From: a phage
Direction: 5' to 3' (one strand)
DNA: 52,467 bases
Sequence record: PZ379545.1
This document shows positions 1-52,467 of the stretch, one piece after another (position 1 is the stretch's first letter; the number at the start of each line of letters is the position of its first letter). The notes below the pieces were generated by a model, which saw nothing but the letters and a program-made list of their open reading frames with translations, was not told the DNA's origin and made no database searches. Made by a program: the position numbers and the translations under genes.

Positions 1-39
<39 letters not shown>

Positions 40-293
40 TTTTTTATTCTTAATTTGTTTCAATATTAATGAGACTAAAATTCGTAACAAAGCTACGAGA
101 CTCGACTTGTTACAATATTATAATTTTTATTTTTGGGTCGGCGGGGAGGGGAAGCCCAACATCCCTATCGGGATAAATACGGTCCCTTAACCAACTTTTT
201 CCAGCCTATCGGCTCAATTCCAAAACCATAGTAGGCGCTACGCTTATGAGTCAAGGTCAAGACAGCACGCTGTAAGAATGTGCTTATCTCTCC

Positions 294-2823: not shown

Positions 2824-3264
2824 TAAAAGAATACGGAGAAATATTCCGCATGTCATGTTGAATCATTCTAGAAACATTCAGCATGTCAGCTTTGAGTTAC
2901 AGTGTTGTAATGATGTGGCAATCATTGAACTCCCTAGGTAGGCCACCTACAGTTCCAGCAACCATGGCAAAGAGTAGGATTATATACTTCGAAACTTGTA
3001 CTTCACCTATAGCATGTCTATTAGTTTCAATCTTGGTTCGCCACCTAGTAAAGTGCAATCTGGATTCAATCCTAGCTCAGTGCACAAAATAGCGGACAAC
3101 CTGTTACTCCTATTATCAAGGCCCACCCACAAGCCGGGAGATAACTTTTACAAGACTGGAACTTTTGGACATGCTTCTTCTTTTCGAAGTAAATTCGATA
3201 ACAGAGAAGAGTCGGAGCAAAGCCTCTCGTTTTCACGCAGAAGCCGCCCCGAATTTGAGCAACA

Positions 3265-3664
3265 AATATTGTGGCAATATTGCTACAGTATGGCATGTAA
3301 ATATTGCAACAAATCGGCATGTTAGAATGTGGCAGAATTGTTAGAGGACTAATCACCTCGAAGATACAATCGTCTACCAATCCGGCATGTAGATTTCGTT
3401 GCAGTATTTGTGCCAATTTAAGCATGTAATATTGTAACAGGTTCGTGCTAACCCGCATGAATACTGGCTTCCAGCCAAGCGAAGGCTTTATCATCGCATG
3501 TAATATTGTGACAATATTGGGATAAAACCCTTTATTTAATTAGTTTTATTATGCTGTACATGGTCGGTTTTCCGTACCTGCTTGCTCCAATCTTAATGTG
3601 CCAAATACATCAAGTATGGGAGTAAACCTGTAATTAATGATGCATGTTTAATTGTGACAAAATT
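3265..3664. repeat. Array of at least six AATATTG-N3-CAATATT-like palindromes, several preceded by GCATGT
   Basis: Perfect palindromes at 3265-3281 (spacer TGG) and 3502-3518 (spacer TGA); imperfect copies near 3276, 3301, 3428 and 3648; GCATGT at 3293, 3317, 3385, 3422, 3496, 3642. Region has no convincing ORF. Confidence 0.7.
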
Positions 3665-25686: not shown

Positions 25687-25872
25687 ATGCAAACAATATC
25701 ATGCCCACAATGCGGTCACTCAATAGCAGAGGACGACTTCATTACTCAACAGTGTCCGGTATGCGACAGCTATATGCGGTTGTCGCGTCTTGACACCAAG
25801 GCTCACCCAGACCTTGGGAAAATCATTCGCATCAATCCTGTGCAAACTTCAACATTAGTAGAACGGGATTAA
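25687..25872 (+). CDS. Small zinc-ribbon protein
   Basis: CPQCG ... CPVCD double CxxC; ATG 25687, or GTG 25633 if longer. Confidence 0.45.
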   Translation: MQTISCPQCGHSIAEDDFITQQCPVCDSYMRLSRLDTKAHPDLGKIIRINPVQTSTLVERD

Positions 25873-49628: not shown

Positions 49629-50139
49629 CTATAAAGGGTTTGTTGAGAATACAAACTTAACTGAAAACCAGCAAGTGCTCAAGGACGAGCACAAAATTAT
49701 CTTCGGTTGTGACGAGAATGGTAAGTGCTGGTATAAGATTCGAAAGAGTCTTAAAGATGGAACTGCCAAGGTTGTGTATGAGAATGATGGCTCTATTCGT
49801 CATATCGACTTCGGACCTGGTGACACTGTGGCTACACCGCTCGGTGGAAACATAGTTGAATTGGATGCTCTGCCAGAAGGTGTTGCGGAAGAAATGCACT
49901 TCTGGAAGTTTGATGGTGAGAAGTTTGTTGAGCATAAAGAAAACCGTGTGAAATATAACGAGTTTATGCGTAAGAAGAAACTTGCACCATTGACGGAAGA
50001 AATCGGTATCCTCACCGACATGGTTGAGCTTGGCATGGCCAAGAAGTCTGACAACGAATTGTTGATTAGTCTCAAGAAGAAGCGTATCAAACTGTCTCAA
50101 CTTGACCCAACCGAAACAATCGACTGGAATGAATTCTAA
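49609..50139 (+). CDS. Tail fiber assembly chaperone (putative)
   Basis: 176-aa ORF directly after the last fiber gene. Confidence 0.5.
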   Translation: MTAILCNYKGFVENTNLTENQQVLKDEHKIIFGCDENGKCWYKIRKSLKDGTAKVVYENDGSIRHIDFGPGDTVATPLGGNIVELDALPEGVAEEMHFWKFDGEKFVEHKENRVKYNEFMRKKKLAPLTEEIGILTDMVELGMAKKSDNELLISLKKKRIKLSQLDPTETIDWNEF

Positions 50140-50480
50140 TGGATAGACAAACTTTCCAGATGGTATGGGAAGCAATGCACCAGTATGGAGTCCTTCATGG
50201 GCTTCTTGCTGGATTGACTGCACTTATTCGTGGAGCATACGAGAAGGAAGGCTTATTGAAGGCCATTCTCGATGCCCTATTATGTGTTGTCATTGGGACA
50301 TTCGTGTTCTCCCTCCCAGGTTTCGTAGACATATTCAAAGACGAGCCTCGCTATGCAACAATCGCTGCAATGGTGATTGGACTGATTGGGGCTAACCTAA
50401 TCATTACAACGATTCGTGATTGCTTCACTGCTGCAATCAAACAACTCAACCCACTAAATTGGTTTAAGAAGGCCAAATAA
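50139..50480 (+). CDS. Holin (putative)
   Basis: 113 aa with two or three hydrophobic helices and a charged C-terminus (NWFKKAK); immediately upstream of the endolysin. Confidence 0.6.
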   Translation: MDRQTFQMVWEAMHQYGVLHGLLAGLTALIRGAYEKEGLLKAILDALLCVVIGTFVFSLPGFVDIFKDEPRYATIAAMVIGLIGANLIITTIRDCFTAAIKQLNPLNWFKKAK

Positions 50481-50498: not shown

Positions 50499-51056
50499 AT
50501 GCTACAAGCACAAGTTCTTGCATTTCTGTTGGTGAGTATGTTTCACGCAAATGTCCCAGCTTCGGCTGGGGCAGTGAACACCACTATTACAGATTTTGCA
50601 AGTCACTCCTACTTAAATGGAACAACCAAACTATCTACTTCACAACGCAAAGATATAGAATGCTATGCAAAAGTAGTGTGGTATGAAGCTCGTGGTGAGA
50701 GCAAACATGGAAAGATTCTGGTAGCTAATGTCGTCCGTAATCGAATGAAATTCGGGAAGCCATTCGCTAACACCGTTTGCGATGTAGTATATCAACGCAA
50801 CCAGTTTGCCTGGACACGAGAGTCAAAGAAGAAACATGCACAATGGAAGTCAATAATGAAGACAAATTGGAAGACCGAATCTAAACAGGTTTGGGATACC
50901 TTGAATGTCGCCATTAACTTCGCTGTGCTCAATGCACCTGATGTAACTGATGCCACTCATTTCTGTACTGCTACAGAGAAATGCAACTTTAAGAGAGTTG
51001 AAGGCCGAGGCCAGTATGGTGGTCATAAATTTTATAAGTATTTAGGAAATAAATAA
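50499..51056 (+). CDS. Cell wall hydrolase, SleB-like, with N-terminal signal or SAR segment (endolysin)
   Basis: N-terminus [25 protein letters not shown] is hydrophobic; core [11 protein letters not shown]...ANVVRNRM resembles the SleB cell-wall-hydrolase family. Confidence 0.65.
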
Positions 51057-51058
51057 TA

Positions 51059-52159
51059 ATGGCATACACTACTTTTTCACAAACCAAGAATGACCAACTT
51101 AAGGAACCAATGTTCTTTGGTCAGAACGTTAACGTTGCACGATATGACCAGCAGAAATATGGTATCTTTGAGAAACTTATCGAGAAACAATTGTCATTCT
51201 TCTGGCGTCCTGAAGAAGTAGATGTTTCCCAAGACCGTATTGATTATGCTGGTCTTCCTGATTGTGAGAAGCACATCTTCACAAGCAACTTACGCTACCA
51301 AATCCTGCTTGATTCCATTCAGGGACGTGGACCAACTACAGTTTTATTACCAATTGTGAGCATTCCTGAACTGGAAACTTGGATTGAAACTTGGTCCTTC
51401 TCAGAGACAATTCACTCTCGTTCTTACACACATATTATTCGTAACATTGTTACAGACCCAAGTGTAATCTTCGATGAAATTGTTGAGAATGAGCATATCC
51501 GCACTCGTGCAATTGGCATCTCCCAATATTATGACGAGCTTCAGCACCTAACTTCTATGTGGCATCTGCATGAAGATGAAGTAGACCTCCGTGAACTCAA
51601 GAAGAAACTCTACTTATGCCTCATGTCCATCAATGCTCTGGAAGCAATCCGCTTCTATGTTAGCTTTGCTTGCTCATTTGCCTTCGCTGAACGCAAGTTA
51701 ATGGAAGGAAATGCCAAGATTATTCGTCTGATTGCTCGTGATGAAGCACTCCATTTGACAGGAACTCAGCACATGCTGAACCTTCTTGCAAGTGGTGTTG
51801 ATGACTCAGAAATGGCTGAAATTGCCAAAGAATGTCACCAAGAATGCCAAGAAATGTTCGAAAATGTGGCCCAACAAGAGAAAGATTGGGCTGATTATTT
51901 GTTCAAAGATGGCTCAATGATTGGCTTAAACAAGCAAATTCTGTCTGGATATGTCGAATATATTACAAATATTCGTATGCAAGCAGTTGGATTAGATGCT
52001 CCATTCAAAGGTGCAACTAACCCGATTCCGTGGATTAACGCATGGTTAAACTCGGATGCTGTACAGGTTGCTCCACAAGAAACAGAGATTAGTTCGTATC
52101 TTGTTGGGCAGATTGACGCTGAAGTTGACACCGATGCTCTGGGTGGATTTGAATTATGA
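51059..52159 (+). CDS. nrdB: Ribonucleotide reductase class Ia small (R2) subunit
   Basis: 366 aa; N-terminus [22 protein letters not shown] and diiron/tyrosyl-radical segment [17 protein letters not shown] match enterobacterial NrdB as recalled. No nrdA-like ORF in the window. Confidence 0.85.
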
Positions 52160-52276
52160 TTGGATACGGTGAAGGCTGACGTTTGTCAGTTATTATGCGA
52201 GAAGAGATTCGATGCGTTAGCGTCGTTTCTCTTTAAGCTAGAATAAAATAAGTAAGTTAAAATATTACTTATTCCC

Positions 52277-52293
52277 AATATTGCTACAATATC
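52277..52293. repeat. Isolated copy of the AATATTG-N3-CAATAT palindrome near the right end
   Basis: AATATTGCTACAATATC; nearly identical to AATATTGCTACAGTAT at 3276-3291. Confidence 0.6.
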
Positions 52294-52339
52294 AAGAGTA
52301 ATATTAGGAATGCGTAAAGTTCAAACCAAAATGGTACAT

Positions 52340-52395
52340 GGTCGGCCAACTGTACTTGGACCAATCTTCGTTCACGGTCGGTCGACTGTATCTAG
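52340..52395. repeat. Two direct 20-nt repeats (GGTCGGCCAACTGTACTTGG / GGTCGGTCGACTGTATCTAG) near the right terminus
   Basis: 15 of 20 positions identical, 36 nt apart; a GGTCGG core also occurs at 138-143. Confidence 0.5.
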
Positions 52396-52433
52396 CCGGA
52401 ATTTGTTCGAACAGAAGTCCGACTATGAATGAT

Positions 52434-52467
<34 letters not shown>

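What the first reader, a model, noticed from the sequence alone, without database searches (positions are those of the whole stretch)
51059..52159. Solitary host-like nrdB at the right end with no nrdA
The product looks very close to enterobacterial NrdB (near-identical N-terminus, conserved iron ligands and tyrosyl-radical region, similar R1-binding tail), with an internal deletion near [13 protein letters not shown]. It starts 2 nt after the endolysin stop, which argues against a chimeric assembly. No R1-like ORF exists in the window, so the phage R2 would have to pair with host NrdA.
Basis: partly seen in the sequence, partly recalled or inferred. Interest (0 to 1): 0.65.

Follow-up and report, generated by a model that had tools for sequence, protein, structure and literature searches.

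The report
Phage nrdB without a partner nrdA
This complete phiEcoM-GJ1-like coliphage genome carries an intact, strongly conserved copy of the small (radical-generating) subunit of ribonucleotide reductase but no large subunit, so it most likely borrows the host's NrdA to make DNA precursors; this lone gene was already noted in this phage group in 2013 but has never been tested.

Summary
A 366-aa ORF at 51059-52159 (+) is a full-length E. coli-type class Ia NrdB (PDB E. coli R2, E=4e-198; 81.7% identity over aligned columns). It has a 10-residue deletion in the R2 beta-hairpin and starts 2 nt after the endolysin stop.

It is not host DNA. It is only ~71% nt identical to nrdB in all 5426 E. coli genomes, its GC3 is phage-like, and the gene sits at the same place in ~46 phage genomes.

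The window is a closed, complete Carltongylesvirus-like genome (Chaseviridae). Four different NrdA queries find nothing in it.

All metal ligands, Y122, W48 and Y356 are conserved. dN/dS is 0.03-0.08, and the alpha-docking C-terminal tail is the most constrained part. The best explanation is therefore a functional phage beta2 that forms a hybrid reductase with host NrdA, as R2-only poxviruses do with host R1. This is inferred, not shown.

The feature is already known: it is annotated in phiEcoM-GJ1 and ST32, and Dwivedi et al. 2013 listed phiEcoM-GJ1 as "nrdB only".

Additions here:
- stepwise hairpin erosion (376 to 372 to 366 aa);
- absence of nrdB from sister genera, which marks it as a lineage-specific insertion;
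- likely late-operon expression.

Interest is modest.

The parts
51059..52159 (+). nrdB: class Ia ribonucleotide reductase beta subunit (R2), 366 aa, intact
   Evidence: ORF; PF00268 E=1.5e-48; E. coli R2 structures E=4e-198, full length; all catalytic residues conserved; dN/dS 0.03-0.08 against phage orthologues.
51044..51047 (+). Shine-Dalgarno AGGA, 11 nt before the nrdB ATG, inside the end of the endolysin gene
   Evidence: Read from the sequence. The ST32 paper lists the equivalent AGGAAAT SD for gp79.
51575..51580 (+). Junction (D173|E174) of the 10-residue deletion that removes the only beta-hairpin of E. coli-type R2 (E. coli residues about 171-185)
   Evidence: Alignments. phiEcoM-GJ1/PYps-type orthologues (372 aa) have a 4-residue deletion at the same place. 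All 18 cellular homologues aligned keep the hairpin.
52052..52156 (+). C-terminal tail (window residues 332-366 = E. coli 341-375) with Y347 (= Y356) and the NrdA-docking end ...[10 protein letters not shown]
   Evidence: 27/35 identical to E. coli K-12 (28/35 to strain CE10). pN/pS 0.023 against 0.127 for the core. In E. coli this tail makes 26 of the 44 direct alpha-beta contacts (PMC11482829).
50499..51056 (+). Endolysin (Hydrolase_2 / SleB-like), immediately upstream; context
   Evidence: PF07486 E=8.9e-16; annotated as endolysin in relatives.
50139..50480 (+). Holin; context. Start of the lysis cassette that precedes nrdB
   Evidence: PF05106 E=3.7e-9.
52201..52235 (+). Conserved terminator-like hairpin with a T-rich tail that closes the transcription unit ending in nrdB; a second, variable hairpin lies at 52174-52191
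   Evidence: Terminator scan hit 52210-52225 + TTTCTCTTT. RNA fold -32.6 kcal/mol, z=-4.5. Conserved in all six relatives aligned, while the reading frame is not.
25851..25868 (+). Nearest upstream copy of the phage promoter-like motif CATTAGTTGnATGTGA, 24 nt before terL; the putative start of the late unit that ends with nrdB
   Evidence: 8 hits, all on the + strand, against 0.18 expected; none between 25868 and nrdB. Function as a promoter is inferred.

Best explanation
The gene encodes a catalytically competent class Ia RNR beta subunit with a diferric-tyrosyl-radical site. It was acquired long ago from a gammaproteobacterium by the ancestor of the phiEcoM-GJ1-like phages (Carltongylesvirus and close kin). 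It was inserted as an accessory gene between the endolysin and the terminator at the right end of the late operon. The phage encodes no alpha subunit, so the phage beta2 is proposed to dock through its conserved C-terminal tail onto host NrdA (alpha2) and deliver the Y122 radical over the W48-Y356 pathway. The result would be a hybrid reductase that raises or sustains dNTP supply after host nrdAB expression is shut off. It would work alongside the phage's ThyX and dUTPase. Shown here: gene integrity, conservation of all catalytic residues, purifying selection, absence of any nrdA from a complete genome, and lineage-specific presence. Inferred: physical pairing with host NrdA, benefit to dNTP supply, and late timing.
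For: Full-length match to E. coli R2 (E=4e-198). D84, E115, H118, E204, E238, H241, Y122, W48, D237, E52, E350, Y356 and I297 are invariant in 9 phage orthologues. dN/dS is 0.03-0.08 at dS 0.4-1.0 among phage orthologues. The C-terminal tail has no known role other than alpha docking and radical transfer, and it is the most constrained region: pN/pS 0.023 against 0.127 in the core (contact counts from PMC11482829). No NrdA-like sequence was found with four divergent queries in a closed genome. The gene is kept at the same locus in about 46 phage records infecting E. coli or Yersinia. Composition is fully ameliorated: GC3 37% against the host's 63%. There is an experimental precedent for the strategy: most chordopoxviruses encode only R2, and it forms functional hybrids with host R1 through its C-terminus (PMC2900304).
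Against: There is no experimental evidence for a phage-beta/host-alpha complex in any phage; a full-text search for 'host NrdA' plus 'phage' found nothing. Eight of 35 tail residues differ from E. coli K-12, four of them in the last seven residues (DDLSNFQL to DALGGFEL), so affinity for E. coli NrdA is unproven. The position at the end of a putative late operon, after the lysis genes, is unusual for a replication-supporting gene. The sister genus Sabourvirus, which also infects E. coli, does without the gene, so it is not essential for this phage type. Class Ia RNR needs O2, so the gene would be useless in anaerobic gut conditions.
Confidence: 0.72

Rival explanations
1. The phage beta2 pairs with host NrdA, but its selective value is regulatory rather than quantitative. 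For example, a hairpin-less beta2 with 45 fixed surface or core substitutions might disfavour the dATP-induced inactive alpha4beta4 ring, or escape another host control. Host RNR would then stay on when dNTPs are high.
For: The only beta-hairpin of R2 is eroded stepwise in this clade (376 to 372 to 366 aa) but kept in every cellular homologue aligned. Fixed substitutions R292K, D302Q and Q306G flank I297, the beta residue that plugs into the NrdA cone domain in the alpha4beta4 ring (PMC11447812). That interface is only about 525 A2, and single alpha substitutions abolish the ring.
Against: I297 itself and its GSMIGLNK context are invariant. Hairpin loss also occurs in phage NrdBs that travel with their own NrdA (VAP7) and in several other phage lineages, so it is not tied to the solitary state. 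I could not map the hairpin or the substitutions on coordinates with these tools.
Confidence: 0.1
2. The protein has an alpha-independent role, such as a ferritin-like oxidase or iron-handling protein, or a radical or electron partner for another enzyme. Alternatively it mainly forms mixed dimers with host NrdB.
For: No cognate alpha is encoded. R2-like proteins with non-RNR functions exist (general knowledge of R2lox proteins). At about 80% identity to host NrdB, heterodimers are conceivable.
Against: The flexible tail that serves only alpha docking and Y356 radical transfer is the most strongly conserved segment. Every residue of the radical-transfer path is kept.
Confidence: 0.07
3. It is a dominant-negative decoy that sequesters host NrdA, for example to block host DNA synthesis.
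For: A catalytically dead poxvirus R2 that still binds R1 is dominant negative (PMC2900304), so tail-mediated sequestration is mechanistically possible.
Against: All iron ligands, Y122 and its hydrophobic pocket (F208, F212, I234) are invariant under strong purifying selection. A decoy would need only the tail. The phage itself needs dNTPs.
Confidence: 0.03
4. It is a non-functional relic of a former nrdAB operon, or an assembly or host-contamination artefact.
For: The missing partner gene is the only argument.
Against: dN/dS is 0.03-0.08 over dS up to 1.0. The ORF is intact in all relatives. It is 70.7% nt identical to E. coli with a phage-like GC3. The same junction is seen in dozens of independently sequenced isolates.
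Confidence: 0.02

Closest known systems
NrdB of phiEcoM-GJ1 (gp75, YP_001595470) and ST32 (gp79), and the same gene in Mangalitsa, flopper, Bp7 and the PYps phages (Chaseviridae, Carltongylesvirus and kin)
   Same: Orthologues: 97% aa identity to ST32 and 90-91% to GJ1/PYps. The position is the same, as the last gene after holin and endolysin, and there is no nrdA. phiEcoM-GJ1 was listed as one of two 'nrdB only' phages by Dwivedi et al. 2013.
   Different: The window is a divergent genome: only 83-86% nt identity at this end and 70-78% in the structural module against Mangalitsa. It is mosaic, with a PYps4T/TH25-type endolysin (88%) joined to an ST32-type 366-aa NrdB. It has D11 and K14 like E. 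coli where the other phages have N and L.
E. coli NrdB (R2, class Ia; PDB 1RIB, 1MXR, 6W4X and others)
   Same: Same length class, fold family, metal ligands, Y122, radical-transfer residues and tail architecture. 81.7% identity over aligned columns.
   Different: 10-residue deletion of the beta-hairpin. 45 substitutions are fixed across the phage clade. The last eight residues are DALGGFEL instead of DDLSNFQL. There is no nrdA upstream and no yfaE downstream. Only 70.7% nt identity, with a phage codon composition.
R2-only chordopoxviruses; vaccinia F4 forming hybrids with host R1 (Gammon et al. 2010, PMC2900304)
   Same: A virus keeps only the small, radical-generating subunit, which is closely similar to the host's and retains the C-terminal R1-binding motif. 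This is the proposed working model here.
   Different: That system is eukaryotic, and hybrid formation and its requirement for replication are shown experimentally there. Here nothing has been tested. The rationale there, cell-cycle-limited host R2, does not carry over directly to bacteria.
Complete phage class Ia RNRs (T4 nrdA-nrdB; Privateer, VAP7)
   Same: Same enzyme family, used as an auxiliary dNTP-supply function. Some of them (VAP7, PCH45 and others) have also lost the R2 hairpin.
   Different: Those examined here for an adjacent nrdA (T4-like F25, Privateer, VAP7) encode their own NrdA beside nrdB. T4-type NrdB is only about 51% identical and has a different tail.

Membership tests
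Class Ia RNR beta subunit (NrdB / R2, E. coli type) | Ferritin-like R2 sequence family (Pfam PF00268) over the full length | tested here: met
   PF00268 E=1.5e-48, residues 32-322. End-to-end alignment to E. coli R2 structures, E=4e-198.
Class Ia RNR beta subunit (NrdB / R2, E. coli type) | Six di-iron ligands (D84, E115, H118, E204, E238, H241) and the radical tyrosine Y122 (not F, as in class Ic) | tested here: met
   All are present and invariant in 9 phage orthologues and in a 25-sequence alignment.
Class Ia RNR beta subunit (NrdB / R2, E. coli type) | Radical-transfer residues W48 and Y356, plus E52, D237 and E350 | tested here: met
   All conserved.
Class Ia RNR beta subunit (NrdB / R2, E. 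coli type) | C-terminal tail able to dock on NrdA | tested here: inconclusive
   The tail is 27/35 identical to E. coli K-12 (28/35 to strain CE10) and under the strongest constraint, but four of the last seven residues differ and binding was not measured.
Class Ia RNR beta subunit (NrdB / R2, E. coli type) | Cognate nrdA encoded with it (nrdAB operon) | tested here: not met
   No NrdA-like sequence in the complete genome with four queries. None is annotated in Mangalitsa.
Class Ia RNR beta subunit (NrdB / R2, E. coli type) | Assembles a tyrosyl radical and supports NDP reduction | not testable with these tools
   Needs EPR or UV-vis spectroscopy and an activity assay.
Virus-encoded solitary R2 that uses host R1 (poxvirus F4-type strategy) | Complete viral genome with R2 but no R1 | tested here: met
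   Closed genome with T31 overlap and end-to-end colinearity; no NrdA.
Virus-encoded solitary R2 that uses host R1 (poxvirus F4-type strategy) | Physical and functional complex with the host large subunit | not testable with these tools
   Only indirect support from constraint on the tail. The precedent is PMC2900304.
Lineage-specific accessory gene ('moron'-like insertion) in a phage late operon | Present in one lineage, absent at the same locus in sister lineages, with conserved flanks | tested here: met
   Sabourvirus 4HA13 and Suwonvirus PM1 go from endolysin straight to the right-end region that carries the same CAATATTGCTACAATAT and GGTCGGTCAACTG elements. No other roughly 50-55 kb Chaseviridae genome appears among the 60 listed of 118 NrdB hits.
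Lineage-specific accessory gene ('moron'-like insertion) in a phage late operon | Own promoter and terminator | tested here: inconclusive
   A conserved terminator-like hairpin follows the gene. No convincing promoter lies between the terL-proximal motif at 25851 and nrdB.

The most novel reading that the evidence does not exclude
The hairpin-less phage beta2 does more than add capacity. By replacing host beta2 on host NrdA it forms a hybrid reductase that escapes the dATP-driven alpha4beta4 off-state, or another host control of RNR. It would act as a phage-encoded 'deregulator' of a host enzyme, and the recurrent loss of the R2 hairpin in unrelated phage NrdBs would reflect the same pressure.
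Probability: 0.1. Interest if true: 0.7.

Novelty: already known. Interest (0 to 1): 0.3.

Why it matters
Solitary RNR subunits in phages were flagged as of unknown functionality more than ten years ago and nobody has followed them up. This clade is a clean, tractable test case. The phages are lytic coliphages that can be handled genetically. The partner, E. coli NrdA, is the best-characterised RNR alpha subunit, and in vitro assays and structures are ready to use. Showing a phage-beta/host-alpha hybrid would establish in bacteria the strategy proven for poxviruses. It would also show which step of dNTP synthesis limits phage replication. The natural hairpin-deletion series (376, 372, 366 aa) offers a free structure-function experiment on a part of R2 for which I know of no assigned function. 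As a sequence finding, though, it is an ordinary, already annotated gene.

Tried and rejected
(1) A yfaE relic downstream of nrdB. The frame after the stop reads ...CQLLCEKRFDALASFLF..., which is reminiscent of YfaE's TQLLCQDEHPSLLAALES. I rejected this. The conserved part (52201-52235) is an RNA hairpin with a T-rich tail. Its reading frame differs among relatives. The upstream 28 nt is an indel that is present in some relatives and absent in others. tblastn with YfaE returned no hit at E<=0.05.

(2) Recent gene conversion from E. coli, to explain the E. coli-identical N-terminus (D11, K14 against N, L in the other phages). Rejected: five of seven surrounding codons differ at synonymous sites.

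(3) Host DNA or a chimeric assembly. Rejected.

(4) An nrdA just outside the window. Rejected, because the genome is closed.

(5) Mapping the hairpin and the 45 fixed substitutions onto the alpha4beta4 or alpha2beta2 interfaces. This was not possible: no coordinates were available, and Chen et al. 2018 is not held. Only I297 could be checked, and it is conserved.

(6) An AlphaFold2 model from a 25-sequence alignment gave mean pLDDT 53. The alignment was too shallow, so I did not use the model for fold search. Family assignment rests on about 80% identity to solved structures.

(7) Rfam and tRNA scans of the whole window found nothing.

(8) An IMG/VR scan for intermediate relatives, such as one with an adjacent nrdA or a full hairpin, found only Mangalitsa, GJ1, E. 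coli's own nrdAB-yfaE region and distant phage RNRs.

(9) The NJ tree could not name a donor. The phage clade (100% bootstrap) branches outside the sampled Enterobacterales/Vibrionaceae/Pasteurellaceae cluster (85% bootstrap for the node joining it to that cluster), and its position may be affected by its long branch.

Full report
**What is there**

The window holds an ATG-initiated 366-codon ORF at 51059-52159 on the + strand. The endolysin stop (TAA, 51054-51056) is followed by 'TA' and then the ATG. An AGGA Shine-Dalgarno sits 11 nt upstream.

The product matches Pfam Ribonuc_red_sm (E=1.5e-48). It aligns end to end with the crystal and cryo-EM sequences of E. coli NrdB (E=4e-198). Identity is 79.5% counting gaps and 81.7% over aligned columns.

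The only length difference is a 10-residue gap: WHLHED|EVDL against E. coli [20 protein letters not shown]. From my recollection of the E. coli R2 structure, this region is its single beta-hairpin.

In E. coli numbering, D84, E115, H118, E204, E238, H241, Y122, W48, D237, E52, E350, Y356 and the Y122 pocket residues are all present. Upstream lie a tail-fibre assembly protein, a holin and a Hydrolase_2 endolysin.

**What the window is**

The right end is 83-86% nt identical to about 50 GenBank phage records that show the same holin-endolysin-nrdB order. These are phiEcoM-GJ1-like myophages with a T7-like RNA polymerase: Chaseviridae, Cleopatravirinae, Carltongylesvirus and unclassified kin.

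The window is colinear with phage Mangalitsa from base 175 to base 52464. Both ends of the window are the same run of 31 T. Joining end to start reproduces the contiguous sequence seen in flopper, the PYps phages and Mangalitsa. The window is therefore a complete, circularly closed assembly cut inside a poly-T tract.

In the virion these genomes carry 2.3-3.2 kb direct terminal repeats that contain the RNA polymerase gene (PMC8762354). What physically follows nrdB is therefore the repeat with the polymerase gene, as the PYps23T record shows, and not an nrdA.

**No alpha subunit**

tblastn of E. coli, T4-like, Proteus phage Privateer and Vibrio phage VAP7 NrdA against all six frames of the window gives no hit at E<=0.05. 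The best E. coli NrdA hit is 20 residues at E=0.31.

The ORFs of 587 aa or more are colinear with Mangalitsa genes annotated as RNA polymerase, primase-helicase, DNA polymerase, terminase and tape measure. The fully annotated Mangalitsa genome has no nrdA.

**Not host DNA, not a relic**

Every one of 5426 complete E. coli genomes matches the gene at no more than about 71% nt identity. Against E. coli, pS is 0.86, which is saturated. GC3 is 37%, like the phage polymerase, terminase and endolysin genes (37-42%), against 63% for E. coli nrdB.

Among nine phage orthologues dS reaches 0.4-1.0 while dN/dS is 0.03-0.08. The gene has been resident in phages for a long time and is under strong purifying selection.

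Split by region, pN/pS is 0.127 for the core (E. coli residues 34-339). It is 0.023 for the C-terminal tail (340-375) and 0.033 for the last 20 residues.

In E. coli that tail is flexible. It carries Y356 and makes 26 of the 44 direct alpha-beta contacts in the active complex (PMC11482829). To my knowledge it has no function other than docking on NrdA and radical transfer. Its extreme conservation in a genome without nrdA is the strongest argument here that the phage protein works with a host NrdA.

**Origin and distribution**

The phage sequences form a 100%-supported clade. It branches outside the sampled Enterobacterales, Vibrionaceae and Pasteurellaceae NrdBs in an NJ tree, which may be a long-branch effect. 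The closest cellular protein is E. coli's at 81.7%; other Enterobacterales are at 79.5% or less. No donor can be named.

The gene is lineage-specific:
- E. coli phage 4HA13 (Sabourvirus) and Pectobacterium phage PM1 (Suwonvirus) go from the endolysin directly into the right-end region, which carries the same conserved elements found after nrdB here.
- Among the 60 listed of the 118 phage records with a NrdB at least 60% identical, the only roughly 50-55 kb genomes are the Carltongylesvirus-like ones.

nrdB therefore looks like an accessory insertion between the endolysin and the terminator.

The junction is also a recombination point. The window joins a PYps4T/TH25-type endolysin (88% identity, against 73-74% to ST32) to an ST32-type NrdB (97%, against 90% to the PYps phages).

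**The hairpin**

All cellular homologues aligned keep the GEGxHxVxGKxVxV hairpin. The GJ1/PYps subclade (372 aa) has lost four residues of it, and the ST32/window subclade (366 aa) has lost ten.

Shortened or missing hairpins also occur in unrelated phage NrdBs. Serratia phage PCH45 and Vibrio phage VAP7 show this in the alignment. Judging from match lengths, henriette-like vibriophages, Pseudoalteromonas phage PH357 and the roughly 142-kb Escherichia phage A73 group do too. VAP7 has its own nrdA next door.

Hairpin loss is therefore a recurrent phage trait and is not specific to solitary NrdBs. Its meaning is open.

I297, the beta residue that inserts into the NrdA cone domain in the dATP-inhibited alpha4beta4 ring (PMC11447812), is conserved, although R292K, D302Q and Q306G are fixed nearby. 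I could not map these changes on coordinates.

**Expression context (inferred)**

A motif CATTAGTTGnATGTGA occurs eight times, always on the + strand, against 0.18 expected. Its copies lie before the polymerase gene, through the early and middle region, and 24 nt before terL at 25851. None lies between there and nrdB.

A conserved hairpin with a T-rich tail follows nrdB (52201-52235). nrdB is thus probably the last cistron of the late unit, which is unexpected for a nucleotide-supply gene and should be checked by RNA-seq.

**Mechanism proposed**

Phage beta2 assembles its own diferric-Y122 radical cofactor and binds host NrdA through the conserved tail. This supplies radical-loaded small subunit when host nrdAB transcription has stopped. 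It complements the phage's ThyX and dUTPase, which are annotated in Mangalitsa.

The strategy is proven for poxviruses. Most chordopoxviruses keep only R2, and it forms functional hybrids with host R1 via its C-terminus (PMC2900304).

I put the hybrid model at about 0.7. Alternatives are a regulatory 'deregulator' variant of it (0.1), an alpha-independent role (0.07), a decoy (0.03) and a relic or artefact (0.02).

**What is known**

The gene is annotated in phiEcoM-GJ1 (gp75) and ST32 (gp79). The ST32 paper remarks that it is the last ORF in both genomes (PMC6266442). Dwivedi et al. 2013 list phiEcoM-GJ1 as one of only two phages with class Ia nrdB alone, the other being Campylobacter phage CPt10. 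They state that it is unknown whether such incomplete sets are functional (PMC3653736).

I found no later paper that addresses it.

**Verdict**

The finding is real and correctly interpreted, but it is an already recorded feature of a known phage genus. New details here are:
- proof that the genome is closed;
- the constraint profile pointing to alpha binding;
- the stepwise hairpin erosion;
- the lineage-specific insertion.

Interest is 0.3. It would be higher only if the hybrid enzyme proves to be deregulated.

Noticed in passing
window 52280-52294, 54-68, 106-120 (+); 2785-2799, 3264-3278, 3427-3441, 3501-3519 (-/+): A 17-bp palindrome-like element (AATATTGCTACAATATT; searched as ATTGYTACAATATTA) gives 8 hits against 0.34 expected. 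It clusters at the genome ends and near the likely terminal-repeat boundary. It is also conserved after the endolysin in the nrdB-less phages 4HA13 and PM1. It looks like an operator or early-promoter element.
   Followed up: partly
window 291, 2804, 3710, 7240, 11007, 11148, 13141, 25851 (all + strand): The motif CATTAGTTGnATGTGA gives 8 hits against 0.18 expected, always upstream of gene blocks. The last copy is 24 nt before terL. These are likely promoters of the phage's T7-like RNA polymerase.
   Followed up: partly
window 1-31 and 52437-52467: Both ends are an identical run of 31 T. The assembly is circular and was cut inside a poly-T tract, which is also long in phage Bp7. The true tract length is uncertain.
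   Followed up: yes
window 52310-52432: A 40-aa ORF is annotated as 'hypothetical protein' in several relatives, but its frame is broken by 1-nt and 7-nt indels in flopper and Bp7. It is probably non-coding. It contains two copies of GGTCGGyCrACTGTA, a sequence also present in 4HA13 and PM1.
   Followed up: partly
window 50499-52159 against relatives: There is a mosaic junction. The endolysin is of the PYps4T/TH25 type (88% aa, against 73-74% to ST32/Mangalitsa). The adjacent NrdB is of the ST32/Mangalitsa type (97%, against 90% to the PYps phages). This implies recombination at or near the endolysin/nrdB boundary.
   Followed up: partly
window 51089-51103 (codons 11-15): This genome, and a 99%-identical metagenomic cluster (P0001), has D11 and K14 as in E. 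coli, where all other phage orthologues have N and L. Synonymous differences rule out recent gene conversion, so this is either convergence or an old polymorphism.
   Followed up: partly
GenBank PP952070 (hit H116), 'Staphylococcus phage Pel53': This is a 53.7-kb Carltongylesvirus-like genome with the same E. coli-type NrdB (89% identity). It is labelled as infecting Staphylococcus hyicus, and the host label looks doubtful.
   Followed up: no
L012 (Serratia phage PCH45), L014 (Vibrio phage VAP7); match lengths: The R2 beta-hairpin is shortened or absent in several unrelated phage NrdBs but kept in all cellular homologues aligned. PCH45 nrdB has no nrdA within 3 kb on either side. L021, a 77.7-kb IMG/VR contig, likewise has none within 3 kb.
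   Followed up: partly
plasmid collection; E. coli plasmid hits: About 700 non-mobilizable plasmids, about 107-113 kb among the rows listed, from Klebsiella, Escherichia, Enterobacter and Yersinia carry a class Ia nrdB about 58% identical to this one. From their size and non-mobilizable typing I take them to be probable SSU5-like phage-plasmids.
   Followed up: no
protein P0004: A 494-aa 'NrdB' in the protein database contains repeated VSYTHLDVYKRQ segments. This looks like translated sequencing-adapter sequence, so it is an assembly artefact and not a real variant.
   Followed up: no
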